DNA of 64,000 nucleotides from Naegleria gruberi (GCA_000004985.1 GG738856.1), one strand, 5' to 3'. Counted from the stretch's first letter, positions 3,082-51,675 are shown. Numbers and translations are program-made. The notes: generated from the sequence alone by a model not told the origin.

Positions 3082-6000
3082 TTACATCATCAATACAGCA
3101 ACCAAGGCCAAAATGAGCATCAAAGCGTTAACAGCAACATTAGAACTTGCATTAACTTTGGTACTCTTCACTGGAGTTACAGTTGAAGGTTTTGGAGTTG
3201 TTGAAGAGCCTGGTGTAACAGTGGTTTGAGAAGTAATGATATAAGTACCAGTGCTTGAAACAGAAGCAGTGATAGTACCGTCGTTGTTCGTAGTTAAGGT
3301 GCATCCAGAGGCAGTTTCATACGTGTTAGTAACAGTATTGAGTACCTTACATGTGTTGACAGTTTCCATCAAAGTTCTTGATTTCTTTGTGAGTTCAAAG
3401 ACCAAATCAGCAATAGAAGAAGAATTAGAAACAGTGACAGCAGTTCCATCAACCAACTTGAAATCAATAGCCTTAGTAATAGTATTATCAACACCAGTAA
3501 CATCAATAACTTTAGCCATAACATTGACAGTCTTGAGAGAAGCAATTTGACTCAATTGAGCAAACTTGGAAGATAACTTGATCTTATTGTTACCAAGAAT
3601 CTTTTCAGAGAGGGAGTTCAAGGTAGCAATGTTAACCTTACGAGTAAGAGTTGTTACACCACCAGCATTAACAATGGTAGATGGCAAGTCAGCAATAGTG
3701 TCCTTAACAGACAAAGTTGCCAAATTGGTATAAACAGTGTTAATGTTTGCAAGGTCAACCTTACTGAAAACTCTCTTTCTTTGTTGACCTTTTTGAATAA
3801 CTTCAAGGAATTTGTCAGCAGATTTCTTTACATTGTCAATCATTTCACTTCCAAGTTCGATGCCGTTAGTGTTAACATTTCCTGTAGTATTTGCGAGACT
3901 GTCAACAACCTTGGCTGTAGTACTATCAGCAACCATTCCAGAAGAAACAGAAGTACTGAATGATGAAGCAAAAGACAGACCATTTTCAGCAGAGCTCTTG
4001 GAAACAGAAATACTATCAGTTTTGGCTTGTTGGTCTAGGAAGGCATCTGCAATAGCAGAAGCAGCTTGCTTGATAGAATCAATTTGTGAAGAGTTCAACT
4101 TGTTAATATCAACACTACCAATAACAGACATGGCAGATGAAGCAGCAGACAATGTGACAGTACCCTTAGAGGTGGCCATTGAAGACAAGGCAGAAACAGA
4201 TTCTTCAGCAGATGGCTTGGTAATAGTAACATCAAAAGTAGCATATGAAGAAGCACCCAAAAAGTCGTACACAACAGCCTTAACAGTCAAAATATTACCA
4301 GATGTTGGTGCTGGGAGTGAGATACTTGCGGATGGTTCTTCAGTTCTGTCAGTAAGAGGGTTCCACTTGTTACCCTTGTTATCGTAGAACATGAATTGAT
4401 AAGTCAATGGTGTTTGAGGATCAGACCAACCATTACCACACTTGATATCGAAAATATCGCTCAAAGCTTTACCAGTGATTGGATAGACATCGAATTGACC
4501 TTGAGTTGGTGGAGAGTTGACAGTGAATGTAACCTTAGCAGAACCTTCCTTGACACCATCAGTGACAGCCAAAGAAACAGTATATGAGTCACCTGGAGAA
4601 AGCAAGCTGGATGGAATCTTCAAATAGCTTGAAGTGGTGGAGGTATTAGTGTTGAGTTCAAAGTTTTCAGCAGACCAAGTAAATGATGGGCTTGATAATT
4701 GAACACCCCATGTAGTATAGGTCAAATACAAGTCCTTAGATGGATCAACAACAGTCAAGTCAACATTTGAAGTAATTGAAACTTTGAGAAGAGTATCCTT
4801 TGCTTGCTCAAGGAGAGTAACAAACAAGTAACGAGTAGCACCTCTTGATCCCTTAGTTACAGTTGCAGTGAATTGGTATGCTCCAGCAGTGAATTGAGTG
4901 CTTGTGAATGAAGAAACATATCCAGGTTGAATGGTACAGTCTTGGCCATTAGTCAAATCATAACAAGTGATGGATACATTTTGGGCATCATTGGTATTAC
5001 TTGGATCAACAACCTTAATATTAAATGAAATTGGATCTTGATTAGATTGAATAACATTGTCAATGGAATAGGAGAGGATCAATGGTTGAGCAATAGCAGT
5101 TACCTTGATTGAGGTTGAGGATGATTCTGCTCCATTAGCTGTGGCAGTGACTGTAAAGTAGTAATCACCTTCTTGATTAATTTCAGTAAATCCCTTACCA
5201 AGGACCAGCATTCCATTCTTTGTTTTTGGTGTAACAATGGATGCAGATTGAGAAGCATCTAAAGTATAACTGTATTGAACTTGACCATTTCCGTTGTAAC
5301 AGGATGGGAATTTGATAATTGGATTAATAGTTGAAACAGAACCAATCATAAACTTGCTTTCAGCACCTTGCTTAATGAACACAGCTGGAACAGCATTGGC
5401 AATAACTGTGAAAGAGAAGGACTTGGTATCCGATTTACCGAAACTACTGGTGACAGTAACAGAAACAATGTAAGTACCAGCAGACAAACCGAGCTCGTTC
5501 AATTTGATTCTCAATCCACCTCGAGTTTCACTCTTGATAGCAGTTGAGAGCTTATCTTCATCTGAACTTGATGGTCCCGAAGCAACAGACCAGGAGAAAG
5601 TTAATGGACGACGATCCAAAGAAACTGAACCATAAGCATTCAAGAACAAATCATCGCATGTTGAAACAACGCTCTTGTCACCAATCAAGGAAACAGTTGG
5701 TGAAGCAGCAATGAATTCACCACTTTGAACTTCTGCATTAGTAGCTTCCTTACTACCTGGATATTTCAATGGTCTAAGAACATCTGAGGTAGTAACAGCA
5801 GCATTAGGTCCCAAAATTACTTCCAAAGTGCTCTTGTCAGTATTGAAAACACATTGAGATCTATCACCAAGCTTTAAAACATCTTGGAAGATTTGATCAC
5901 ATGGAATTGGTCTCTTGAGGGTGGAGTAAACAGTTGCAACAAGTCTGTCACCGTTGGCATTGAACTTGAGAGAGGATGTATCAAATTTATAGTCACAATT

Positions 6001-7864
6001 ATCACCAGCATATTGGTTGAGACAAACACCTGGAGCACATTTAGCAGCTGGGTCAACATTTGGACTATTACAAGTGCAAGAGCCATCATAGGTACAAGTT
6101 CCTCTACCATTGCAAGTGGATGGGTTACAAGAAATTGAACAATTTGCACCAACAAATCCACCAATACACTTTTCACAATATTCACCAGCATAATTTCCAT
6201 CACATTTACATTTCAAACCTTGACATTTACCCTTGCCACCACAAGTACCAGCATCTGTACACACTGGTTCTTTACAATCATCTCCCTTAAATGCAGGACT
6301 ACAACTAGAACAATTACGAGAACCAGTCCAAGCAGAATCACATTGACAAGTATCTGGACCAACACACTTACCGTGTTGAGAACAAGCATATTGACTATTT
6401 CTATCAACACCATGGCATGAGAATGATTGACAAGATGATCCTTCGAAACCAGCCAAGCATTTACAAGCATTTGGACCTTGGCATGAACCCTTACCATTAC
6501 ATACTGATCTATCAGTAGCTGGAGTATTGTAACATATTGGAATTTCACAATTTGCACCAGTGTATCCAGCAATACACTTCAAACAGTAGGTGCTAGGATC
6601 AAAATTACCTCTACATTGACAAACGTCGACATCAGTACATTTACCATTGAAGGAACAACCACCAGCTTGTTCAGTCTTACCATTACAAGTTTTGATATCG
6701 CATTCAATTCCTGAATAACCAGCTTTACAATTACAAGTATTTGGAGCAACACATTTACCTTTGCCACCACAAACTTGAGCCTCATCTTGAGGTTTACCGA
6801 AACAAGTTGNNNNNNNNNNNNNNNNNNNNNNNNNNNNNNNNNNNNNNNNNNNNNNNNNNCAGTTCCATTCACACAGCACCATTCTTACATTGAATATTAG
6901 CACATGGATCAACTGGACCTGGTGGAGGATTTGGATTGCTTCCATTATTATTAGTATTATTATTACCTGGATTTGGATTAGGTGTTGGACTACTTCCATT
7001 ATTATTATTATTATTAGGATTTGGATTTGGGTTGCTTCCATTGTTGTTGGTGTTATTATTACCTGGATTTGGATTAACAACTTGATCACAATGAGGACCA
7101 GTGAAACCTTGTTGACATTCACATGTTCCATTCACACAAGTACCATTACCACAGTGAATATTAGCACATGGATCAACTGGACCTGGTGGAGGATTTGGAT
7201 TGCTTCCATTGTTATTAGTATTATTATTACCTGGATTAGGATTAGGTGTTGGACTACTTTCATTATTGTTATTAGTATTATTATTAGGATTTGGATTTGG
7301 ATTAGGGTTAGGATTTGGGTTGCTTCCATTGTTATTGGTATTATTATTACCTGGATTTGGATTAACAACTTGATCACAATGAGGACCAGTGAAACCTTGT
7401 TGGCATTCACATGTTCCATTCACACAAGTACCATTACCACATTGAACATTGGCACATGGATCAACTGGACCTGGTGGAGGATTTGGATTACTGTTGTTAT
7501 TATTTCCAAGAACTACTTCACAATGAACACCATCAAAACCTTGATTACATTCGCACATACCAGAGGTCATGTTACAAACACCATGACCGCAATCAGAATT
7601 ATTAGAGCACAAAGGTGCACAGAGAGTATCATTATAATAGTAGCTAAGACTTCCATCGCAGCCACATGTGCCATTAAGACACACCAAATTTACACCATTC
7701 ATAGTTTGATTGAGTACATTATCATAGAAAGGATAATTACACTCAGAATCATTTTGGCACCCTTTCACTACAAAGCCATTAAGCAACAGCAGTGTAGAAA
7801 ACAGGGACACCAAAGCAAATACAAAAGTTAGCCTTGTTGTCTGCATATTTTTTCTTGAGGTCAT
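3082..7864 (-). CDS. Giant secreted/surface glycoprotein with EGF-like repeats, N/P-rich linkers, a Ser/Thr-rich region and a hydrophobic C-terminus; interrupted by an assembly gap
   Basis: A signal peptide (MTSRKNMQTTRLTFVFALVSLFSTLLLLNG) sits at 7864. Repeated CANIQCGNGTCVNGTCECQQGFTGPHC EGF modules follow. After the gap there are more EGF/tenascin-type Cys repeats, then about 1000 aa of S/T-rich beta-rich sequence, ending in ...NVAVNALMLILALVAVLMM (TM or GPI signal). The two ORF-track pieces differ in frame because the gap length is unknown. Confidence 0.6.
6810..6859. other. Assembly gap (50 N)
   Basis: A run of N lies inside the EGF-repeat gene. Confidence 0.95.
6861..7500. repeat. ~243-bp tandem repeat (about 2.6 copies) encoding EGF module + GNNNTNNNGSNPNP linker
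   Basis: Near-identical blocks start near 6890, 7133 and 7375 (ccattcacacaagtaccattaccaca...ggatttggattgcttccatt). The array abuts the N-gap. Confidence 0.7.
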
Positions 7865-9045: not shown

Positions 9046-9990
9046 CTAGCAAAGAATACACTTTTTATCTTTCTTTCGATGGCTAGTATGAGTTTCAAAG
9101 CTTTTTATAACTTGAACGAGTCTGTGATATCTAATTAGAATACTGAAGGCATTGGAAACTGTTTCATTGTGTGCAGCGGATGCCATGATAATGGGACAAT
9201 ACTTTAGTTTCGGATTTCTTGTGAAAATTTCATAAACATCCTTCAAGTTAAATTGATATGCTGAAGAATCAACATCAACCTTATTCACAACAATGACATA
9301 GGATTTGTACATTTTCTTCTCCTTAAAATTTGATTTTAGAACCTCCTCTAGCTCTGTAAGAGATTGTCTATCATTTATCGAACAAACTAACATGAAACAC
9401 TCTCCAAATTTATATTCCATTCCAAAAGAGAAAGAATCCTCAATAACTAATCTCGTAGGATAATCATCAACAATGGCATTCTTCCATGTAGTTTCCTCAA
9501 TAGTTGGATCTATCTTTACTCCATCAAAATAGTTCATGACATATTGAACTGTCAGAGCTGTCTTTCCAACATTTGCTATTCCACCAACGAATATTTTGAA
9601 ATCAGCTTGTCCGTAATAATTCTTATTATTTGATTCCTTTTCAAGTTGCAAACTCTTATAATTCTCCTTAAACTTGTGCATTAATTGAGCGTATCGACTT
9701 CTGTTACTCATTGTTGATGGCCATGGTATTTCTTCATCTTGTTTTGCCAATACTTCCTCTGTCCATTCCCGATGAGAGAGTCTTGCCCAACCCATCACTA
9801 AATACCTCCAATAACCATCCTGTAAATATTGATCAATTGGAGAGTCTTTCTTGAATGAGAGAGCCATCGAACAAGCTGCCTTACTTCTCATAGTTTCACC
9901 TTCCTTGTATTTAAAATTCAAAGGCTCTTGATTCAGACCACAATAATTCAAAATGATAATAATTAATTCATCGGGCAATCTGTTCGTCAT
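9046..9990 (-). CDS. F-box-like + Ras-like small GTPase with C-terminal CaaX (CILC)
   Basis: The N-terminus LPDELIIIILNYCGL is F-box-like. The GTPase has a P-loop GGIANVGKT, a G4 motif VVNKVD and a G5 motif SAAH. It ends in KKCILC. Confidence 0.65.
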   Translation of the reverse strand: MTNRLPDELIIIILNYCGLNQEPLNFKYKEGETMRSKAACSMALSFKKDSPIDQYLQDGYWRYLVMGWARLSHREWTEEVLAKQDEEIPWPSTMSNRSRYAQLMHKFKENYKSLQLEKESNNKNYYGQADFKIFVGGIANVGKTALTVQYVMNYFDGVKIDPTIEETTWKNAIVDDYPTRLVIEDSFSFGMEYKFGECFMLVCSINDRQSLTELEEVLKSNFKEKKMYKSYVIVVNKVDVDSSAYQFNLKDVYEIFTRNPKLKYCPIIMASAAHNETVSNAFSILIRYHRLVQVIKSFETHTSHRKKDKKCILC

Positions 9991-11527: not shown

Positions 11528-12547
11528 TTAATGTAAGAGACGAGTCAAGTGTTTCATTCCCTTCACATACTTCACTCCTTCTTCCCCTATTCTGTTGAAA
11601 CTAATATCAAGAAGTCTCAATTGTTTCATTTCACTAATAGATTTGGCACCTTCAGGACCAATTCTATTTCCATCAATTCTAAGATCAGTCAAGTTTGGCA
11701 TTTGACTAATAGCCTTTGCTCCCTCATCTCCAATTTCATTATAACAAATATTGAGTGTGGTTAATTTATCTAGTTCACTTATAAAAATTGCTCCTTCTGA
11801 CCTTAGAGAATTAGTATAGGCTTTCAGATAAGTCAATTGCTTCATTTGGCTAATGGATTTTGCACCTTCAGCACCCAAATTATTTCCACAAATGTCAAGT
11901 TTAGTTAAATTTTTCATTTCACTGATACTTTTGATTCCTTCTTGATCTATATTACTGGAACTGATATTGAGGAACGTTAAATGATCCATGCCACTAATTG
12001 ATTTTGCACCTTCTGCGCAGAGATAATTTGCACTAATATCAAGTTCAGTCAATTTAGTCATTCCACTAATTAATTTTGCACCTTCTGTACCAATTTGACT
12101 CGAGTCAATGTATAGACTAGTTAATTGCTTGAATTCACTGACGATCTTTGCTCCTTGCAACCCAATTTCATTTCCGCCAACACAAAGTTTAGTCAAATTT
12201 CGCATTAGGCCAACAAGCTCCAAATACTTAATATCAAACACTTCCTCTACGGAAATAAATTTCAGAGATGTAAAACTCTCCAAAAATTGACTTTTCCTAA
12301 CAGCATTGAATTTGCTATCGGTAATGTTTTTGAATTCAATTGAAAGTTTTGCACGTTCATTGATCACATTTAAAAATTGCTTTGAAATGAGGGAACACTT
12401 GTACAAGATGAATTTTGGATTTTCAATATAGGATATTATTTCAAAGCAAACATCATCAGAAAATATTTCCTTCTTGCCGAGTTCGGTTTGCTGAGACAAA
12501 GGGGTTTCAACAAGTTCACTCATTTTTTTTGAGATGTCAAATTTCAT
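11528..12547 (-). CDS. F-box-like + ribonuclease-inhibitor-type LRR protein
   Basis: The N-terminus is ...EIFSDDVCFEIISYIENPKFILYKCSLISKQF. It is followed by about ten GNEIGxEGAKxIS LRR units. Confidence 0.7.
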   Translation of the reverse strand: MKFDISKKMSELVETPLSQQTELGKKEIFSDDVCFEIISYIENPKFILYKCSLISKQFLNVINERAKLSIEFKNITDSKFNAVRKSQFLESFTSLKFISVEEVFDIKYLELVGLMRNLTKLCVGGNEIGLQGAKIVSEFKQLTSLYIDSSQIGTEGAKLISGMTKLTELDISANYLCAEGAKSISGMDHLTFLNISSSNIDQEGIKSISEMKNLTKLDICGNNLGAEGAKSISQMKQLTYLKAYTNSLRSEGAIFISELDKLTTLNICYNEIGDEGAKAISQMPNLTDLRIDGNRIGPEGAKSISEMKQLRLLDISFNRIGEEGVKYVKGMKHLTRLLH

Positions 12548-16260: not shown

Positions 16261-18150
16261 ATGAACAACACTAAGCGTACCCCTCGGTTTGTAAAGCCGT
16301 TAGCTTTGGTTAATAAAATTGAAGATCAAGGCTCCTCCAACAACAAGCGTTCCTTTGAAAACCCTGTAGGCGAAATGTATTCGGAGGCGACACTATTTGA
16401 TTGTGAATCAACAGACTTATTTTCATGTGTTTCATTGCCACCTAAAAGACGGTTGGTAGAATCGTCATTGCTTAATACTTTTGAAGATACAGATTCTTTT
16501 GACAGACCTATTATTGAGAAATCGTTAGAAATAGTACCTAATACCTCCATTGAAATTAAATGTAATATAGGAAACATACCATCTCTGGACATGAACAGAA
16601 CAGTCGATCTACTTTCTGATAAAACAATAACAAATGATGATACAAGTGCAAGCAACTTGAGAATAGATATAATATCAAAAATCAGTTTGGATACTGTTAT
16701 TTACCGTGATAATATGAATAATAGAAAAAATGTGTTGAATAATTACACTCAGCTCCTTCAGTTCGTTAATGATTGCCCTAATCTTAATGTTCTTGGAAAT
16801 ACGAAAGCTGCCTTTCACATTCAAGTAGAAGGGTATGCCAGAACTGGAAAGACAACTCTTTCATCAGTAGTTCTTCCTTATTTACTATCAAAATACAAAT
16901 ACAATACCTATTCGAAATATAGAACAATACTAATCAATACCAGAAATTTTGAAAGGACTTGTTTATTTGGTGATTACATTCTACAAACCTTGCAATTCGA
17001 ACTGAAGGTTCCACCACCACAATTAAAACCTTTCACACAGGCTTACTCATTTTGGCCTAATTGGTTAGCAAAACATTTAGATCCTCAAACTTTTTATTTT
17101 TTTTGCTTAGATGATATTCAATTATTGAACGAAAATGAAATGCATGAAGCAAAATGCTTTTTCAAATCAGGTTTTAATCCTGAGAATATGGTTGCCATTG
17201 TTACTGGTTCTTCACAGTCAATGTTCTTGAAGAGAATTGCTTCTGTGAGGTCGAATGGTTTTTCCTTAAATGAATGTGTTAGCAAATATGTTATTCCGAA
17301 AGAGATCACATTCAATGAAATTCAAGAAACAGTAACAGCTTTAAAATCAATTAATCAAAATGGATCCCTTACCGTTGATCATATCAAGCAATTGAAAATT
17401 GTTTTTCGAGAAATTCTTCCATCTCATCTATCAATACTTCATCATGAAAAGGAGTATTCAGTAGAAAAATTGGTTAAGGAATACCAAGGAATTTACTTGA
17501 AGGATTTTCCATTTCTGAAAAGTTATGAATTAACTGAATCTGACAAACGAATAATCAAATTTCTACTAAAGGGAGATTTTTCACATTTGGAAGGAAATCA
17601 AAGAATTGCTCCTGAGGGACTTTTTTTCTATATCGAGAAAAAAGAAGATGGCGAGTACAGATTAAGGGATCTAGTGTTGGACAAGATGTTACACTTTTGT
17701 TTCCAAATAGATCCCACATTCGGTAAGGTTATAAGAAAGGATAATCTATCTGAAACTTTTTATTATGATTTCTTTCTTTTACTTCCTGTCTCAGAATTTG
17801 GCAAAACACTTTCTAAAAATATATTCTTTCTTAATAGGTTGACTTATCCATCCTTCACTCCAAATACTAAGCAAATCAGTAGAATGCGTAATGCTTTACT
17901 AAAAGAAGCAAAATATCATTTCACAATTGACAAAACATTCCATTCAATTATTATTGGAGTGAGAAATCATGTGCTAAACAACATTCCCAATTCATCAGTT
18001 GTTTGCAACTTGTTTTTGACTCATTGGTTCAATAATTCCATTTCACAATTTCATTCATTTCTGGAAGACCTCATAGAAGTCAATTCAATCAACCTTAAAG
18101 CTTGTAAAGCACAAAAAAACAAATCAAAAAAAAATAGGAAATGGAAATGA
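16261..18150 (+). CDS. Hypothetical AAA+-like P-loop NTPase
   Basis: The 629-aa ORF has a Walker A motif GYARTGKTTL and a Walker B-like motif FYFFCLDDIQLL about 90 aa downstream. A sensor-1-like IVTGSS follows. Confidence 0.45.
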   Translation: MNNTKRTPRFVKPLALVNKIEDQGSSNNKRSFENPVGEMYSEATLFDCESTDLFSCVSLPPKRRLVESSLLNTFEDTDSFDRPIIEKSLEIVPNTSIEIKCNIGNIPSLDMNRTVDLLSDKTITNDDTSASNLRIDIISKISLDTVIYRDNMNNRKNVLNNYTQLLQFVNDCPNLNVLGNTKAAFHIQVEGYARTGKTTLSSVVLPYLLSKYKYNTYSKYRTILINTRNFERTCLFGDYILQTLQFELKVPPPQLKPFTQAYSFWPNWLAKHLDPQTFYFFCLDDIQLLNENEMHEAKCFFKSGFNPENMVAIVTGSSQSMFLKRIASVRSNGFSLNECVSKYVIPKEITFNEIQETVTALKSINQNGSLTVDHIKQLKIVFREILPSHLSILHHEKEYSVEKLVKEYQGIYLKDFPFLKSYELTESDKRIIKFLLKGDFSHLEGNQRIAPEGLFFYIEKKEDGEYRLRDLVLDKMLHFCFQIDPTFGKVIRKDNLSETFYYDFFLLLPVSEFGKTLSKNIFFLNRLTYPSFTPNTKQISRMRNALLKEAKYHFTIDKTFHSIIIGVRNHVLNNIPNSSVVCNLFLTHWFNNSISQFHSFLEDLIEVNSINLKACKAQKNKSKKNRKWK

Positions 18151-18225: not shown

Positions 18226-19577
18226 TACCTTTCGAATATTCATTTTAGAAATTATTTAAAAAAAATAATCAAATACGAATCACCATTCGCCTCCAATTCC
18301 ACCAATTCCACAATATTCTCTGATGATATTTGTTATGAAATTCTATCCTATTTCCATGAGGAAAATGATGGAAAATTTATTCTACTAAATTGTTCGTTAA
18401 TTTGCAAGCAGTGGATGATGAGTGTGAAGAAATTCGGAAAGATTTCAATTAATATTAGAAATAGACTTTCGGATTCATTGATAGAAACAATCAAGAGAAA
18501 TCAATTTTTGGACTGTTTTGTGAAATTTGGAATTTATTCGAAAGATTTTGTAAAGTTTCATGAAATAATTACAATGATGAAGAATTTAAAAAGTCTTTGT
18601 ATTGGAAATGATTCTATTGGAGAGGAGGATTTAAAATTTATTGGAGAAATGAATCATTTAACTGAACTTGAATTGTGTGAATGTTTGACCGGAGATAAAG
18701 ATATTAGACCAATTAGTAGAATGTCTCAATTGACTAGATTAAATATTAGTAAGAATGTAAAGTATCATTTAAGCGATATCATTGAATTGAAGCAATTAAA
18801 AATACTAGAAATTGGAGAAAATTTCATAGGAGATGAACAAGTTGAACTACTTTCCAATCAATTGAAACAATTGACCATTTTACGAATTAATAATAACTTG
18901 ATTCATTCGCAAGGGGCTGAACATTTGAGTAAATCGGATCAATTGACTGAATTAGATTTAAGTGGAAATGCTTTAAATTATACAATTGGCTATGAAATTG
19001 CAAAAATTGAACAATTGAAAACTCTTCACCTTAGCAAACTTTCAATATATCAAATGGGATCAAGACGTCCAGTTGGATCAAGATTGAGTTCACAATTTGG
19101 ACAATTATTTCAATTGACCAGTCTTAGTATAAGTAATACTAATATTGGAGATGAGGGAGCCAAAGAAATTAGTAATTTAACACAATTGACTGAACTATAT
19201 GTACATGGAGCTGGAATTGGAAATACAGGAGCCAGATCATTAAGTGTTTTACATCAATTGGCCAAACTAGATATCAGTACTAATCAAATTGGAGATGAGG
19301 GAGTTAGATTATTCAAACAATTATCAAAATTAACAGAACTTGTTGTGTTTAATAATAGAATAGGAGATGTTGGAGCACAACTAATAAGTGAAATTCCTCA
19401 ATTGACCAATCTTGATGTTAATAACAATCAAATTGGAAATGAAGGGGCAAAATCAATGGAAATCAAATTGATGATCAAGGAGCTAAATTATTATGTGAAA
19501 TGAATCAAAGAAAAATTGAACTTTATGGAAATAATATTAGTAATGATTTCAATTATTTAATTGAATTATTGAGCTGA
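18226..19577 (+). CDS. F-box-like + RI-type LRR protein, apparently disrupted (no in-frame ATG ahead of the F-box; +1 frameshift near 19455)
   Basis: The frame opens at 18226 with IFSDDICYEILSYFHEENDGKFILLNCSLICKQW, but the first ATG is at 18412. The LRR units run to ...NNNQIGNEGAKS. The sequence then continues only in the +1 frame as NGNQIDDQGAKLLCEMNQRKIELYGNNISNDFNYLIELLS (stop 19575-19577). Confidence 0.5.
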
Positions 19578-19717: not shown

Positions 19718-20743
19718 TCATTGAATGAAACATTTTCCAATGGATGATGATTCCAAATCAATATCTGAATCTGGATTTCTAAATGCTATTGATTTGATAA
19801 GTAGTTCTAAAATTTTATCAAAATCATATCCTCTCACTGTTGATGATTCCATATAAGAAATTGCTCCAATTTTCTTTGCAAAATCAATGCCGTCCTTTGG
19901 CGAGACAGTTAGTGTATTTCTATTTCTATAATTCCTCAAATCAGTCATACATCCCATTACTACATATGGAGTTTGAGGAGAGAAGTGAGAAATTAAAGGT
20001 AAAATCTCCTTTTCAATTGTAATAAAATCAGGACACTGATCAATGGTTGGAATATTGATTTGTTGTTGATCATCAAAATTATGAAATGTGCTAAAACACA
20101 AACAATACAGATCCACATCCAATAATGCATTATCTACTTCTGAATTGTTATCTTCACCGGGAAATCTGCTATATTCACATAATTTAACAGTTGCAATTTT
20201 AAGATTATTCAATTTTGATGAGTATTGAAATTGATATTCAGAATTGGAATCCCACGTGTTATGAATTAATGGAATAGTCAACAAATTCTTTTGAATTATA
20301 CTTGATTTCCCACAAGATTTTGATCCAATAAACGTCACTTTAAAAATTGGCAATTTTCTTCTAATTTTCTTCATATTCAACACATCCTGATCCGAAACAT
20401 TCTTTCTAATAAACTCCTCCGATCTAAAACATGATAAATTCGATGAAAATTTCATTTCTGAAATTAAATATTCAAATTTCTTCCTTTCTGAACTAAAATT
20501 TTTCTTCCCAACTTGATCGCACAATAATGAATATTTCATCATGGTTAATAAATTAATTTTCCTCTCATTCATCAATTGTAAATTCTGCTCCGAAAGAAAT
20601 CTTTCATTGACACATTGTGTTAGGACAAAATTCGAATTAATTATTCGGAAGGACAAGATTTCTTCAAAGGGAAGAAAATTCAAAATAGAAAAAATAATTT
20701 CAGAGGGAAGAGATGAAAGGTGGCTTGTTAGGTTTTGTTGCAT
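19718..20743 (-). CDS. F-box-like + Rho-like small GTPase with C-terminal CaaX (CFIQ)
   Basis: The N-terminus is LPSEIIFSILNFLPFEEILSFRIINSNF. The GTPase has a P-loop FIGSKSCGKSS, CLCFSTF, MGCMTDLRN and ESSTVRGYDFDKI. It ends in GKCFIQ. Confidence 0.6.
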   Translation of the reverse strand: MQQNLTSHLSSLPSEIIFSILNFLPFEEILSFRIINSNFVLTQCVNERFLSEQNLQLMNERKINLLTMMKYSLLCDQVGKKNFSSERKKFEYLISEMKFSSNLSCFRSEEFIRKNVSDQDVLNMKKIRRKLPIFKVTFIGSKSCGKSSIIQKNLLTIPLIHNTWDSNSEYQFQYSSKLNNLKIATVKLCEYSRFPGEDNNSEVDNALLDVDLYCLCFSTFHNFDDQQQINIPTIDQCPDFITIEKEILPLISHFSPQTPYVVMGCMTDLRNYRNRNTLTVSPKDGIDFAKKIGAISYMESSTVRGYDFDKILELLIKSIAFRNPDSDIDLESSSIGKCFIQ

Positions 20744-20814
20744 TTTTTTTTGAGAGTTTTTTTTACTTTAAAGTGCTTTACAATAGGTTTTACAATGAAT
20801 GTGACGAATAAGGA

Positions 20815-20887
20815 GAGACTGTAGCTCAGATGGGAGAGTATTCGTTAACCCAACGAATGGTCTTAGGTTCAAATCCTAACTGTTTCT
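20815..20887 (+). tRNA. tRNA-like element with atypical anticodon loop (possible pseudo-tRNA)
   Basis: The D-arm is GCTC-AGATGGGA-GAGT and the T-arm is TTAGG-TTCAAAT-CCTAA. The acceptor GAGACTG/CTGTTTC has one mismatch. The anticodon stem TTCGT/ACGAA encloses loop TAACCCA, which has A at position 33 and no standard anticodon assignment. Confidence 0.35.
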
Positions 20888-20888
20888 C

Positions 20889-31149: not shown

Positions 31150-31662
31150 GTTGTTTGGTTAATATTAACTGGTTGATTGGGTGGTGTGGGTGGTCGTTAA
31201 AAGAATATTTGGTTTTTTTCAACAACACAAGAAACAAATTGATGACCAAGTTTGAAATTTAAAGCAATTTTCAAAAAGCTTTTTTTAGATCGAAGGAAGG
31301 TTACGTTGGAATTATTACTTTTATCCTACAATCAACTCTAAATTCTAGCTTACTGTATCTATAATTTTTCCTTTTTCTCAAGATTATTCTTATTAATGGA
31401 TTCCGAGCAAAACATCTTTATCATTTTTTTAAATATTAATTGTTTTATTAAGAGTTTGATGTTTTGTATCATGAAAAAATCCACAACAATGAAGTGATTA
31501 AGAATTGTATCCATGATGAAGGAAGGATTCGTCATAACCAAATCATCTAATATTGGCCAATACACCAAGTTCATCCTTTGTTCAAACTCGTCAATACATC
31601 AATTTTAATTCTAATTAATTAGAAAAAAACAACAATTGTTGATAATTTCAGATCCAATCAAT

Positions 31663-32716
31663 ATGGAAACAATCAAGTGTGTACTTGTTGGTGCGAATAA
31701 TGTTGGTAAAACGTGTAGTTTAATTTCCTATACGACCAATTATTTCCCAGAAGATTACGTTCCAACAGTTTTTGATAATTACAGTGCTAATGTTATGGTT
31801 GATGGCAAGCCTTTTTCATTGGGTTTGTGGGATACTGGTATGTATATTGGTTATGATCATGATCATGATCATCTTGAATCGATGATCGGGTGATTATTTA
31901 CAATGAATTTAATTATTTAATTGATGATGATCTTTTAATTGGAAAATAATTTTAGCTGGACAAGATGAATACGACAGATTGAGACCATTAAGTTATCCAC
32001 AAACTGACATTTTCCTGGTCATGTTTGATGTTGGTGATCGTTCTACATTGGATAGTGCACTTGGTAAATTTGTTAATGAAATTCAACACCATTGTCCAAA
32101 TGTTCCAAAATTGTTAGTTGCTAATAAGATTGATTTGGATAAGAGACAGGTCAGTAGAGAAGAAGGTGAAAGATCAAGTAGAGTGAAGGGATTTGATGGT
32201 TATTTTGAAGTTTCTGCTCGTACTCAACAAGGATTGAAGAATATATTTGATGAAGCTTGTAGAATTGCAAGTAGTAGAAAGGCTGATAGAAAGCCAGTTT
32301 CTTATGATTCAGATGCTTCATCTGAAGCTGAAGAAGAAACTGAATGGGATAAGAAGGCAAGAGAAGTTGAAGATCCATTCCCAGAAAAATACAAATTTGG
32401 TATTTATTTAATTGATCAATATGGAAAGACTGTAGAGGATAAATTCATTTTGAAAACAGAAGTTGCAAGCTATTGGAAATTACTTGTTGCACTGGTTAAG
32501 AAATTGAGAGATTTTGGTGGAAAGAAAGATGAAGAAGAGGAAGAAGAGGAAGAAAAGAAACTCGTTGCAAACTACTTTGACGATAATCAATTTAAAATTT
32601 ACATTGAAGATCCAGATTTTAAGGATTTCTTCTTATTGGATTCTTTTGAATTATTGAAAGAAGTTGGTGAAAAGTCCAATAATAATGTCAAGTTGCAATT
32701 GGTTGGTAGTTGGTAA
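31663..32716 (+). CDS. Rho-family GTPase (Rac/Cdc42-like) with long acidic C-terminal extension, no CaaX; 2 exons
   Basis: Exon 1 (31663-31837) encodes [17 protein letters not shown]...LGLWDT. A 118-nt intron (GTATGT...TTTTAG) follows. Exon 2 (31956-32716) encodes [22 protein letters not shown]...LVANKIDL. About 150 extra residues follow, including a poly-E tract, ending in VGSW. Confidence 0.75.
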
Positions 32717-50556: not shown

Positions 50557-51675
50557 ATGGGAACAAAGCCATCACGTACCTTGATGCCAATACGAACCAT
50601 CATTCAACAGAAATTAACTAAAAAAGTTCTATTACTCGGTACCTCCGATTCTGGTAAATCCACATTATTCCACATGTTGCAATTGATAACTTTCGGCCAT
50701 AAAGTTGATGAAAAGTTTGAAAATAATTTGCGAATTGTTTGCTCATGGGTTGTTGAGCGAATTTGGGAAGTGATGGGAGAGCAAGACCGAAATCACTTGA
50801 AAGATCTCATCAACCCAGAACTGAGATTAGTGTTCGAAACTGCACGAAATACTTGTTTAGCTACTGAATTGCAAAATAGAGATTGTTGTGAAATATTGGT
50901 CAATCTTTGGAAAATTCCATTCTTTAGAGAGTTTTACGAATCAGTGTGGAGTAGAGATGGAATCACAATGTACGAAAATGTCAAGGAATTAGTTTCAAGA
51001 ATTGAAAACAGGAAAATCTTTTCTCCATATTCATTAATTCATTGTAGGACGGCTGGAATGTCGACAGACGAACCAATCAGAAACAACATTGAACTGATCG
51101 ATGTTGGAGGACAGAGAAAAGAAAGAAGGAAATGGATTTATTGCTTTGAAGATGTTCATACAGTGATTTATATGGTTTCTCTTTCAGAATTTAATCAATT
51201 TTTATTTGAAGATAACATTACTAATAGAATGGAAGAATCACTATCCTTATTTAGTGAGGTTATGAATTCGAGATGGCTTGGTCCTGCTCGTAACATAATT
51301 CTCTTTGTAAAACCAGATGTTCTATGGAAAAAATTGGAAAATGGAGTGAAATATGATAGAGAACTCAATACTAATATTATAGCAGAGCTAGACAGAATTC
51401 CTGATCAGTATCTTAAACTGGTTATCAACTCGATCATTTCAGAATATTTCAAGAAAATAGATAGAACTACAATTGATTCCTATCATATTGTGAATACAAT
51501 CTCAGAAGAGGATATCAAATCTGTTTGTGAAATAATCTTTGGAGAGAGAATAGATCAAAAAACAACCTTCATCTCACCATGTATCATTCCTGACAACAAT
51601 AGAATGATACGGTGCCTCTTCAATAATTATCTGAATGAAAAATTGACAGATATACAAATCATTACTTCCGACTGA
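50557..51675 (+). CDS. Heterotrimeric G-protein alpha subunit (divergent)
   Basis: MGTKPS (Gly2) at the N-terminus. The P-loop is VLLLGTSDSGKST. ...IHCRTAGMSTDE...IDVGGQRKERRKWIYCFEDVHTVIYMVSLSEFNQ...NRMEESLSLFSEVMNSRWLGPARNIILFVKPD aligns with G-alpha DVGGQRSERKKWIHCFE...NRMHES..LF...IILFLNKKD. Confidence 0.75.
   Translation: MGTKPSRTLMPIRTIIQQKLTKKVLLLGTSDSGKSTLFHMLQLITFGHKVDEKFENNLRIVCSWVVERIWEVMGEQDRNHLKDLINPELRLVFETARNTCLATELQNRDCCEILVNLWKIPFFREFYESVWSRDGITMYENVKELVSRIENRKIFSPYSLIHCRTAGMSTDEPIRNNIELIDVGGQRKERRKWIYCFEDVHTVIYMVSLSEFNQFLFEDNITNRMEESLSLFSEVMNSRWLGPARNIILFVKPDVLWKKLENGVKYDRELNTNIIAELDRIPDQYLKLVINSIISEYFKKIDRTTIDSYHIVNTISEEDIKSVCEIIFGERIDQKTTFISPCIIPDNNRMIRCLFNNYLNEKLTDIQIITSD

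What the first reader, a model, noticed from the sequence alone, without database searches (positions are those of the whole stretch)
9046..9990. F-box-like head fused to a Ras-like GTPase ending in a CaaX box
A single ORF combines an N-terminal F-box-like motif (LPDELIIIILNYCGL), a complete small-GTPase domain (P-loop GGIANVGKT, G4 NKVD, G5 SAAH) and a C-terminal CILC. F-box proteins normally act as substrate-recognition adaptors of SCF ubiquitin ligases. A prenylated GTPase in that position is not a textbook architecture. It suggests nucleotide-state-dependent, membrane-localised SCF targeting, or regulated turnover of the GTPase itself. A second independent example is 19718-20743.
Basis: partly seen in the sequence, partly recalled or inferred. 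Interest (0 to 1): 0.7.

Follow-up and report, generated by a model that had tools for sequence, protein, structure and literature searches.

The report
Atypical Naegleria Ras with F-box-like tip
This is an intact Naegleria gruberi gene for a lipid-anchored, probably hydrolysis-dead Ras-like protein whose N-terminal extension starts with a motif like the first helix of an F-box; F-box–GTPase fusions are already catalogued in this organism, so it is at most a modest addition.

Summary
The ORF is real: 9046..9990, minus strand, 314 aa. It is identical to N. gruberi XP_002679896.1, annotated "ras small GTPase".

Confirmed:
- A Ras-family domain (Pfam 4.6e-12; R-Ras2 2.9e-14).
- P-loop, switch-I Thr, NKVD and SAA motifs.
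- A polybasic CaaX tail (HRKKDKK-CILC).

Not confirmed:
- A "complete" GTPase. Switch II has a 7-residue deletion that removes Gly60/Gln61, and Gly12/Gly13 are Ala/Asn. I expect nucleotide binding without normal hydrolysis.
- An F-box domain. Pfam gives no F-box hit even at E≤10. Only residues 5-17 (LPDELIIIILNYC) resemble F-box helix 1, which is better than 150/150 shuffles but is one helix only. AlphaFold2 models of the extension were too low in confidence to use.

The architecture is not new. Herman et al. 2021 (BMC Biol, Suppl. 4 and Table S8) report F-box fused to Rab-like, Rho, Ran and Gα domains in Naegleria, some with CaaX, and propose GTPase-dependent ubiquitination. TbFRP and ARF–F-box fusions are further precedents. 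That table lists this protein as "Ras" with no extra domain.

The second example (19718..20743) is better supported: its Pfam F-box hit passes the cutoff, and it has a Rho-like domain and a CFIQ CaaX. RefSeq truncates its F-box, and the gene is missing from the published catalogue.

Verdict: new member of a known kind; low to moderate interest.

The parts
9046..9990 (-). Whole coding sequence (314 codons + TAG stop at 9046-9048) = XP_002679896.1, N. gruberi 'ras small GTPase'; single exon
9610..9990 (-). N-terminal extension, residues 1-127. Predicted mostly helical but at low confidence. No detectable homologue outside this protein.
   Evidence: AF2 pLDDT <50 for residues 1-77. phmmer against 1.84 billion representatives returned only itself and three repeat artefacts. 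No Pfam family.
9940..9978 (-). F-box helix-1-like motif L5-P-D-E-L-I-I-I-I-L-N-Y-C17
   Evidence: hhalign against 10 Pfam-validated F-boxes: score 17.1 against a shuffle null of 8.4±1.9, 0/150. Pattern scan: 2 hits in 250 ORFs against 0.04 expected. No Pfam hit.
9121..9609 (-). Ras-family GTPase-like domain, residues 128-290
   Evidence: Pfam Ras 4.6e-12; R-Ras2 2.9e-14; Foldseek to K/H/N-Ras at 5e-11; pLDDT 80-90
9559..9582 (-). P-loop G137-I-A-N-V-G-K-T144 (GxxxxGKT). Ras Gly12 and Gly13 are replaced by Ala139 and Asn140.
   Evidence: alignment to R-Ras2; G137, G142 and K143 invariant among compared Naegleria Ras paralogues
9490..9510 (-). Switch I / effector loop D161-P-T163-I-E-E-T (Ras YDPTIED); Thr35 equivalent kept
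9397..9438 (-). Degenerate switch II: D185-S-F-S-F-G-M-E-Y-K-F-G-E-C. It is 7 residues shorter than in Ras and has no Gly60/Gln61.
   Evidence: HMMER alignment to R-Ras2; MAFFT alignments
9274..9285 (-). G4 motif N236-K-V-D239 (guanine specificity)
9172..9180 (-). G5 motif S271-A-A
9049..9081 (-). Polybasic stretch plus CaaX box: H304-R-K-K-D-K-K-C311-I-L-C314
   Evidence: read directly from the sequence; phmmer alignments to K-Ras4B run to residue 313
19718..20743 (-). Second example: 341-aa ORF with F-box (residues 9-39, 20627-20719), P-loop GSKSCGKS (20303-20326), Rho-like C-terminal half (19787-20050) with CMTD in place of NKxD, and CaaX CFIQ (19721-19732). The RefSeq model XP_002679899.1 starts only at Met97.

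Best explanation
What it is. This is a single-exon gene with no relative found outside N. gruberi. It encodes an atypical, membrane-anchored Ras-family protein and belongs to the very large, fast-evolving Ras-superfamily expansion of Naegleria, in which many GTPase domains carry an N-terminal F-box.

Shown:
- The C-terminal 190 residues are a Ras-type G domain.
- The nucleotide-binding elements are intact: P-loop Lys/Thr, switch-I Thr, NKVD and SAA.
- The Ras effector loop DPTIEE is conserved.
- The tail is K-Ras4B-like: polybasic plus CaaX (CILC).

Inferred from established Ras biochemistry:
- The protein binds guanine nucleotide.
- It cannot run a normal GAP-assisted hydrolysis cycle, because Gly12→Ala, Gly13→Asn, Gly60/Gln61 are deleted and switch II is shortened.
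- It therefore behaves like constitutively loaded atypical GTPases (Rnd, RhoH, RhoBTB) and is controlled by abundance and location rather than by a switch.
- It is prenylated (farnesyl predicted from X = Cys) and held at a negatively charged membrane.

Inferred, least secure:
- The 127-aa helical N-terminal extension begins with a diverged F-box, of which only helix 1 is recognisable.
- Through Skp1 it ties the protein to an SCF (cullin-1) ligase.
- The result is either its own turnover or a membrane-tethered substrate receptor whose Ras effector face picks the targets.
For: - Identity, ORF and Ras domain.
- Motif states: the alignment, where G1 and G4 are invariant among the compared Naegleria Ras paralogues while switch II is degenerate in nearly all of them.
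- F-box helix 1 in this protein: hhalign score above all 150 shuffles.
- Pattern scan: the motif occurs only at the N-termini of the two N-extended GTPase ORFs in the window, against 0.04 expected.
- Same architecture in other N. gruberi Ras paralogues (Table S8): LPxEILxxILSF at the start of a ~110-150-aa extension, then the G domain, then KKCxxM or KKCILC.
- Their N-extension profile matches canonical F-boxes at hhalign probability 88-92%, E about 1e-6, score 36 against a null of 8.6±2.2.
- Their consensus sequence's top Pfam hits are PRANC, F-box-like_2, F-box-like and F-box, which is 4 of the top 5.
- Published precedent in the same genome, including the CaaX-bearing subgroup and the hypothesis of GTPase-dependent ubiquitination.
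- RhoBTB precedent for a GTPase domain with G12/switch-II deviations fused to a cullin adaptor, with auto-ubiquitination.
Against: - No Pfam F-box family hits this protein at E≤10.
- All F-box-clan hits to the paralogues and to their consensus are below Pfam cutoffs.
- The similarity covers helix 1 only. The region where helices 2-3 should lie gives no signal (P=0.35).
- A profile search of PDB sequences finds no F-box protein.
- A leave-one-out profile of the paralogue extensions does not recognise this protein's extension (7 bits).
- Its G domain is nearest to canonical Ras, not to those paralogues, so common origin of the extension is not shown.
- Both AF2 models of the extension are unusable (pLDDT <50).
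- No orthologue is listed in N. fowleri, since the accession occurs only once in Table S8.
- No relatives were found in any sequence search, so selective constraint could not be measured.
- No expression data could be consulted.
Confidence: 0.5

Rival explanations
1. Relic F-box. The N-terminal extension descends from an F-box but no longer binds Skp1. The protein is an atypical lipid-anchored Ras whose helical extension serves another role, such as intramolecular regulation of the G domain or binding a different partner.
For: Only helix 1 is recognisable, and helices 2-3 cannot be detected by profile-profile comparison. There is an insertion of about 18 residues after helix 1 relative to canonical F-boxes. 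There is no Pfam hit. This protein departs from the paralogue consensus at several conserved extension positions, and a leave-one-out profile fails to find it.
Against: The LPxE(I/L)(I/L)xxIL block, which carries the core Skp1-contacting residues of F-boxes (established structural knowledge), is conserved in this protein and is the best-conserved part of the paralogue extensions (8-9 of 9-10 sequences per position). That argues for a maintained interaction.
Confidence: 0.3
2. Decaying paralogue. The gene is a recent duplicate in a birth-and-death family under relaxed constraint, and both its F-box and its catalytic machinery are eroding. It has little or no function.
For: The published analysis notes pseudogenes and 'dynamic birth-and-death evolution' in the related expansions. 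No orthologue was found in N. fowleri or elsewhere. Switch II and the F-box are both degenerate. The neighbouring F-box-Rho gene shows loss of its start codon in another strain and pN/pS of 0.44 on few sites.
Against: A 314-codon ORF stays open in a 34% G+C genome; I estimate the chance of no stop at about 5e-11 from base composition. The residues needed for nucleotide binding and the CaaX box are all intact, which is not expected under neutral decay.
Confidence: 0.13
3. Chance motif. The LPDELIIIILNYC resemblance is coincidental in a hydrophobic, AT-rich-encoded N-terminus, and the extension is unrelated to F-boxes.
For: hhalign probability for the single sequence is only 5.8%. There is no Pfam hit. 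The matched stretch is 13-15 residues long.
Against: The score exceeds all 150 shuffles. The pattern is found in just two of 250 window ORFs, both at the N-terminus of an N-extended GTPase, against 0.04 expected. One of the two is a Pfam-significant F-box. The same placement recurs across dozens of Naegleria GTPases.
Confidence: 0.07

Closest known systems
Naegleria F-box-GTPase fusions (Rab-like, Rho/Rac, Ran, Gα), Herman et al. 2021, BMC Biol 19:142, Supplementary Material 4 and Table S8
   Same: Same organism and same layout: an N-terminal extension beginning with LPxE(L/I)…, then a Ras-superfamily G domain, and in some subgroups a C-terminal CaaX. The same functional idea is proposed ('GTPase-dependent ubiquitination'). 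The ORF at 19718..20743 fits the F-box-Rac group closely.
   Different: The paper reports F-box for Rab-like, Rho, Ran and Gα, not for the Ras family. This protein is listed there as 'Ras' with no additional domain. Its F-box is not detectable with Pfam.
N-extended Ras paralogues of N. gruberi listed in Table S8 (e.g. XP_002680941.1, XP_002677816.1, XP_002673059.1)
   Same: Extension of about 110-150 aa that starts with LPxEILxxILSF, followed by a Ras-type G domain with invariant P-loop and NKxD but degenerate switch II, and a basic CaaX end. XP_002680941.1 also ends in KKCILC.
   Different: Homology of the extension beyond helix 1 is not demonstrable. The G domain is no closer to them than to canonical Ras. 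This protein lacks their NFQS, FNEFWW and LKRKILL blocks in clear form.
RhoBTB (atypical Rho GTPase + BTB cullin-3 adaptor)
   Same: A GTPase-like domain with Gly12 and switch-II deviations is fused to a cullin-RING adaptor module. RhoBTB3 carries a CaaX. These proteins act as substrate adaptors and are themselves ubiquitinated.
   Different: The adaptor is BTB (Cul3) and lies C-terminal. Here the candidate adaptor is F-box-like (Cul1/Skp1) and lies N-terminal, and the G domain is Ras-type rather than Rho-type.
TbFRP (FYVE-F-box-GTPase) of Euglenozoa
   Same: An F-box lies upstream of a Ras-like G domain in another member of Discoba. Membrane targeting and rapid turnover have been proposed.
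   Different: TbFRP is targeted by a FYVE domain binding PI3P, not by a CaaX. Its G domain is Rab-like. Its authors found no orthologue in N. gruberi.
K-Ras4B / R-Ras2
   Same: These are the best sequence and structure matches for the G domain. They share the effector loop DPTIE and the polybasic + CaaX membrane anchor.
   Different: They have no N-terminal extension and have canonical Gly12, Gly13 and DTAGQE with a full-length switch II.

Membership tests
Ras family small GTPase (Pfam PF00071) | Profile match above the curated cutoff | tested here: met
   46.2 bits against a cutoff of 21.6, E=4.6e-12; nearest solved structures are R-Ras2, R-Ras and K-Ras
Ras family small GTPase (Pfam PF00071) | G1 P-loop GxxxxGK[ST] | tested here: met
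   G137-IANV-GKT144, but the Gly12/Gly13 equivalents are Ala/Asn
Ras family small GTPase (Pfam PF00071) | G2 switch-I Thr (Thr35) within YDPTIED | tested here: met
   D161-P-T163-I-E-E
Ras family small GTPase (Pfam PF00071) | G3 DxxG followed by the catalytic Gln (DTAGQE) | tested here: not met
   D185-S-F, then a deletion covering Gly60-Gln61-Glu62; switch II is 7 residues short
Ras family small GTPase (Pfam PF00071) | G4 NKxD and G5 SAx | tested here: met
   N236-K-V-D and S271-A-A
Ras family small GTPase (Pfam PF00071) | C-terminal CaaX prenylation signal | tested here: met
   C311-I-L-C314 is the very C-terminus and is preceded by RKKDKK. Actual prenylation was not testable.
F-box protein (Pfam clan F-box: PF00646, PF12937, PF13013, PF09372) | Profile match to the ~45-aa F-box above the curated cutoff | tested here: not met
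   No F-box-clan hit at E≤1 on the whole protein or at E≤10 on residues 1-76
F-box protein (Pfam clan F-box: PF00646, PF12937, PF13013, PF09372) | Helix 1 signature LPxE(L/I)(L/I)xxI(L/F)xx(L/F/Y/C) | tested here: met
   L5-P-D-E-L-I-I-I-I-L-N-Y-C17. hhalign to a validated F-box profile covers columns 8-22, score 17.1, 0/150 shuffles as high.
F-box protein (Pfam clan F-box: PF00646, PF12937, PF13013, PF09372) | Helices 2-3 (…VCKxW…LW) completing the three-helix fold | tested here: inconclusive
   No profile signal for that region (P=0.35). AF2 predicts helices at 35-45 and 60-72, but pLDDT is below 50.
F-box protein (Pfam clan F-box: PF00646, PF12937, PF13013, PF09372) | Binding to Skp1 | not testable with these tools
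   Needs AF2-Multimer with N. gruberi Skp1, or a pull-down
Published Naegleria F-box-GTPase fusions (PMC8296547) | Listed in Table S8 with 'F-box' as additional domain | tested here: not met
   XP_002679896.1 is listed as 'Ras' with the additional-domain column empty
Published Naegleria F-box-GTPase fusions (PMC8296547) | N-terminal extension upstream of a Ras-superfamily G domain in a Naegleria-restricted paralogue | tested here: met
   127-aa extension. Only the protein itself and canonical Ras domains were found elsewhere.
N-extended Ras paralogue group of N. gruberi | Extension recognisable by a profile of the other members | tested here: not met
   Leave-one-out HMM scores 7.1 bits, E=0.08 in a 253-sequence set, no better than random ORFs

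The most novel reading that the evidence does not exclude
The N-extended, CaaX-ended Ras paralogues of N. gruberi, this protein included, would be true Skp1-binding F-box proteins. They would form a family of membrane-tethered SCF substrate receptors whose recognition module is a hydrolysis-dead Ras effector face. That would extend F-box fusion to the one major Ras-superfamily branch (Ras proper) for which the published catalogue reports none. It would also give a direct wiring of Ras-effector recognition to ubiquitination at the membrane.
Probability: 0.3. Interest if true: 0.55.

Novelty: new member of a known kind. Interest (0 to 1): 0.3.

Why it matters
If the F-box-like tip is functional, Naegleria would have coupled every main branch of the Ras superfamily, including Ras proper, to cullin-RING ligases. 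That would strengthen the published but untested idea that GTPase-linked ubiquitination is a major regulatory mode in this amoeboflagellate. The genus also contains the brain-eating pathogen N. fowleri.

Two practical points for annotation follow from this work:
- F-box detection by Pfam, SMART or CDD under-calls these fusions. Helix-1-only remnants are missed.
- At least one F-box-Rho-like gene (19718..20743) is truncated in RefSeq and absent from the curated GTPase catalogue.

None of this changes textbook understanding, and there is no experimental evidence.

Tried and rejected
1. phmmer of residues 1-130 against 1.84 billion representatives. It returned the protein itself plus three hits, which are translated tandem repeats and a TPR protein. 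I rejected these as repeat artefacts.
2. Word-seeded homologue searches with the protein, with an N-extension alignment and with a full-length alignment. They returned only canonical Ras proteins and two fragments of another paralogue (P0017, P0018). The other paralogues were not retrieved, so no deep alignment could be built for structure prediction.
3. AF2 of the full protein and of a paralogue extension. N-extension pLDDT was below 50 and mean pLDDT was 42.6, so no fold inference was possible.
4. Foldseek of the model against PDB. It only re-identified Ras.
5. Profile search of PDB sequences with the extension alignment. No F-box protein appeared; the top hits (CspZ, ApoA-I) are noise.
6. 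hhalign of the helix 2-3 region, of an insert-trimmed alignment and of a '-M first' alignment against canonical F-boxes and against Naegleria Rab-like F-box extensions. Nothing aligned confidently beyond helix 1.
7. Exact-sequence contig look-up and a JGI metagenome scan for orthologues of this protein. Neither found anything, so no dN/dS could be computed for it.
8. Literature searches by accession and for Naegleria Skp1. Nothing specific turned up.
9. I considered and rejected a mis-joined gene model: the ORF is continuous and equals the RefSeq protein. I also rejected an upstream exon for the second ORF, because a tRNA gene sits 72 bp upstream.

Full report
**1. What is at the coordinates**

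The window is about 33% G+C eukaryotic DNA. On the minus strand, 9046..9990 is an uninterrupted 314-codon ORF ending in TAG. Its translation is 100% identical over its full length to XP_002679896.1 / EFC47152.1 / UniProt D2V8B7, annotated "ras small GTPase" in Naegleria gruberi NEG-M. The public single-exon gene model and the ORF therefore coincide. An in-frame stop lies two codons upstream of Met1, so the LP motif starts at residue 5 of the protein.

**2. The GTPase half**

- Pfam Ras (PF00071) matches residues 133-287 at E=4.6e-12, 46 bits against a cutoff of 21.6.
- The nearest solved proteins are R-Ras2 (2.9e-14), R-Ras and K/N-Ras.
- The AF2 model is confident here (pLDDT about 80-90) and superposes on K/H/N-Ras.

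Reading the R-Ras2 alignment motif by motif:

| Element | State in this protein |
|---|---|
| P-loop | G137-IANV-GKT144 fits GxxxxGK[ST], but Ras Gly12/Gly13 are Ala139/Asn140 |
| Switch I | D161-P-T163-I-E-E keeps Thr35 and the Ras/Rap effector loop |
| Switch II | D185 (Asp57) is followed by S-F; Gly60-Gln61-Glu62 are deleted; the segment is 7 residues shorter than in Ras |
| G4 | NKVD (236-239), intact |
| G5 | SAA (271-273), intact |

By established Ras biochemistry, substitutions at Gly12, Gly13 or Gln61 abolish GAP-assisted hydrolysis. I therefore infer that the protein binds guanine nucleotide but does not cycle normally. This resembles Rnd, RhoH and RhoBTB, the last of which has the same kind of Gly12 and switch-II deviations yet still binds GTP.

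**3. The tail**

The protein ends in H-R-K-K-D-K-K-C-I-L-C. This is a CaaX box at the true C-terminus preceded by a polybasic run, the K-Ras4B arrangement. phmmer alignments to K-Ras4B extend to residue 313. With X = Cys, farnesylation is the textbook prediction. This rests on general knowledge and was not tested.

**4. The head**

This is where the finding is weakest.

- *Direct profile scans are negative.* No Pfam F-box, F-box-like, F-box-like_2 or PRANC hit appears at E≤1 for the protein or at E≤10 for residues 1-76.
- *The extension has no detectable homologue.* phmmer of residues 1-130 against 1.84 billion representative proteins found only the protein itself and three repeat artefacts. 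A JGI metagenome scan found nothing.
Each one was verified to hit PF00646/PF12937 above cutoff. Residues 4-18 of this protein align to helix 1 of that profile with an hhalign score of 17.1. Against 150 column-shuffled versions of the profile the score was 8.4±1.9, with a maximum of 14.4.
- *The pattern is rare in the window.* A relaxed helix-1 pattern occurs in just two of the 250 ORFs of 60 aa or more. Both hits are at the N-terminus of an N-extended GTPase ORF, this one and 19718..20743. Residue shuffling gives 0.04 expected.
- *Nothing beyond helix 1 can be shown.* The region where helices 2 and 3 should lie gives no profile signal (P=0.35).
- *Structure prediction did not help.* The AF2 model of residues 1-77 has pLDDT below 50.

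**5. Context from the literature**

Herman et al. [quoted passage not shown] Their Supplementary Material 4 makes these points:

- One of those subgroups has a conserved CaaX.
- This points "to GTPase-dependent ubiquitination".

Other precedents are TbFRP, a FYVE–F-box–GTPase of Euglenozoa (PMC3593210), and ARF-family–F-box fusions (PMC8358228).

In Table S8 this exact protein is listed as "Ras" with the additional-domain column empty. No Ras-family row that I read carries "F-box".

**6. A small extension of that catalogue**

Many "Ras" rows in Table S8 show the same layout as this protein:

- an extension of about 110-150 aa beginning LPxEILxxILSF;
- conserved NFQS, FNEFWW and LKRKILL blocks;
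- a Ras G domain with invariant P-loop and NKxD but degenerate switch II;
- a basic CaaX end. XP_002680941.1 also ends in KKCILC.

A profile of these extensions matches the canonical F-box reference as follows:

- hhalign probability is 88-92% with E about 1e-6;
- the score is 35-37 against a shuffle null of 8.6±2.2;
- this holds whether or not this protein is included in the profile;
- the confident alignment covers helix 1 only, 19-22 columns.

Individual members give only sub-threshold Pfam F-box-clan hits, with E between 0.005 and 0.2. For the family consensus sequence, four of the five top Pfam hits are F-box-clan models, all below their cutoffs: PRANC 0.004, F-box-like_2 0.03, F-box-like 0.06 and F-box 0.16. 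I read this as a diverged F-box with an insertion after helix 1. It is probable but not proven.

Two caveats apply to placing this protein in that group. A leave-one-out profile of the paralogue extensions does not recognise its extension (7 bits). Its G domain is closest to canonical N. gruberi Ras (31% identity, 1e-18) rather than to those paralogues. Its relation to them rests on shared architecture, not on demonstrated homology.

**7. The second example**

ORF 19718..20743 (minus strand, 341 aa) has these features:

- a Pfam F-box above cutoff (21.9-24.8 bits against 20.5; residues 9-39);
- a P-loop, GSKSCGKS;
- a C-terminal half most like RhoA (2.4e-6), in which NKxD has become CMTD;

It resembles the N-extended Rac entries of Table S8, several of which are flagged F-box and end in CLIQ, CFLQ or CIIC. 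It is therefore an independent case: a Rho-type rather than Ras-type fusion.

Its RefSeq model XP_002679899.1 starts at Met97 and so lacks the F-box. Neither the accession nor three sequence substrings occur in Table S8.

A 98%-identical metagenome contig (L001) carries a 53-bp deletion that removes this ORF's ATG and its first seven codons. pN/pS between the two copies is 0.44, but on only 14 differences, which is uninformative.

**8. How it most likely works**

My preferred account is this. The farnesyl-polybasic tail anchors the protein at an acidic membrane. The G domain sits permanently nucleotide-loaded and presents a Ras effector loop. The N-terminal F-box-derived helix recruits Skp1–Cul1, either to turn the protein over or to ubiquitinate whatever binds the effector face. 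This is analogous to RhoBTB–Cul3.

- Shown: domain identity, motif states and the tail.
- Inferred: nucleotide binding without hydrolysis, and prenylation.
- Speculative: Skp1 binding.

The rivals, with my rough weights, are:

- a relic F-box that no longer binds Skp1 (about 0.3);
- a decaying paralogue (about 0.13). The intact 314-codon ORF and the preserved binding residues argue against this;
- a chance motif (about 0.07).

**9. Verdict**

I classify it as a new member of a known kind and score interest at 0.3.

Noticed in passing
window 19718-20743 (-), especially 20456-20743: The RefSeq model for this gene (XP_002679899.1, 245 aa, 'predicted protein') starts at Met97 and omits the 96 in-frame upstream codons that hold a Pfam-significant F-box. 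The gene is absent from the published Naegleria GTPase catalogue (Table S8 of PMC8296547). It ends in a CaaX box (CFIQ), and its NKxD motif is degenerate (CMTD).
   Followed up: partly
L001:1-330 against window 20690-20775 (-): A 98%-identical ENA metagenome contig (ERZ929261) has a 53-bp deletion between short direct repeats. It removes the ATG and first 7 codons of the F-box-Rho ORF. The F-box codons stay in frame but have no upstream Met. This is either a start-codon polymorphism or an assembly artefact.
   Followed up: partly
window 20815-20888 (+): ARAGORN calls a tRNA-Gly with anticodon ACC, which is unusual for eukaryotes, 72 bp upstream of the F-box-Rho ORF. The L001 copy differs at two positions inside the tRNA, one of them next to the anticodon. 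It may be a pseudo-tRNA or a mis-call. Six other tRNA genes are scattered through the window.
   Followed up: no
window 31615-31890 and 31931-32716 (+): A third small GTPase gene is present: a canonical Ras (Pfam Ras profile positions 1-55 and 56-158) split by a short intron of about 40 bp after the switch-I/β2 region.
   Followed up: no
window 50557-51675 (+): A heterotrimeric G-protein α subunit gene (Pfam G-alpha, 1.9e-50). Four Ras-superfamily genes in 64 kb illustrate the Naegleria expansion.
   Followed up: no
window 11528-12547 (-) and 18415-19503 (+): Two LRR_6/RNI-type leucine-rich-repeat proteins flank the GTPase genes. The first has an F-box-like start (…DDVCFEIISYIENPKFILYKCSLISKQF…) that was not called by Pfam at E≤0.01.
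   Followed up: no
window 3082-7864 (-): Large EGF-like, Cys-rich, Asn/Pro-repeat secreted or membrane protein ORFs. A run of X in the translation shows an assembly gap (N run) inside the gene.
   Followed up: no
L002:469-1565 (+): The metagenome copy of N-extended Ras paralogue XP_002677816.1 is called as two genes: 136 aa ending at the P-loop, then 158 aa of Ras. This suggests an intron of about 210 bp right after GQGGVG in that paralogue.
   Followed up: no
window 16261-18150 (+): A 629-aa ORF with a Walker-A-like GYARTGKTT and only a weak AAA_14 hit (E=0.007); otherwise uncharacterised.
   Followed up: no
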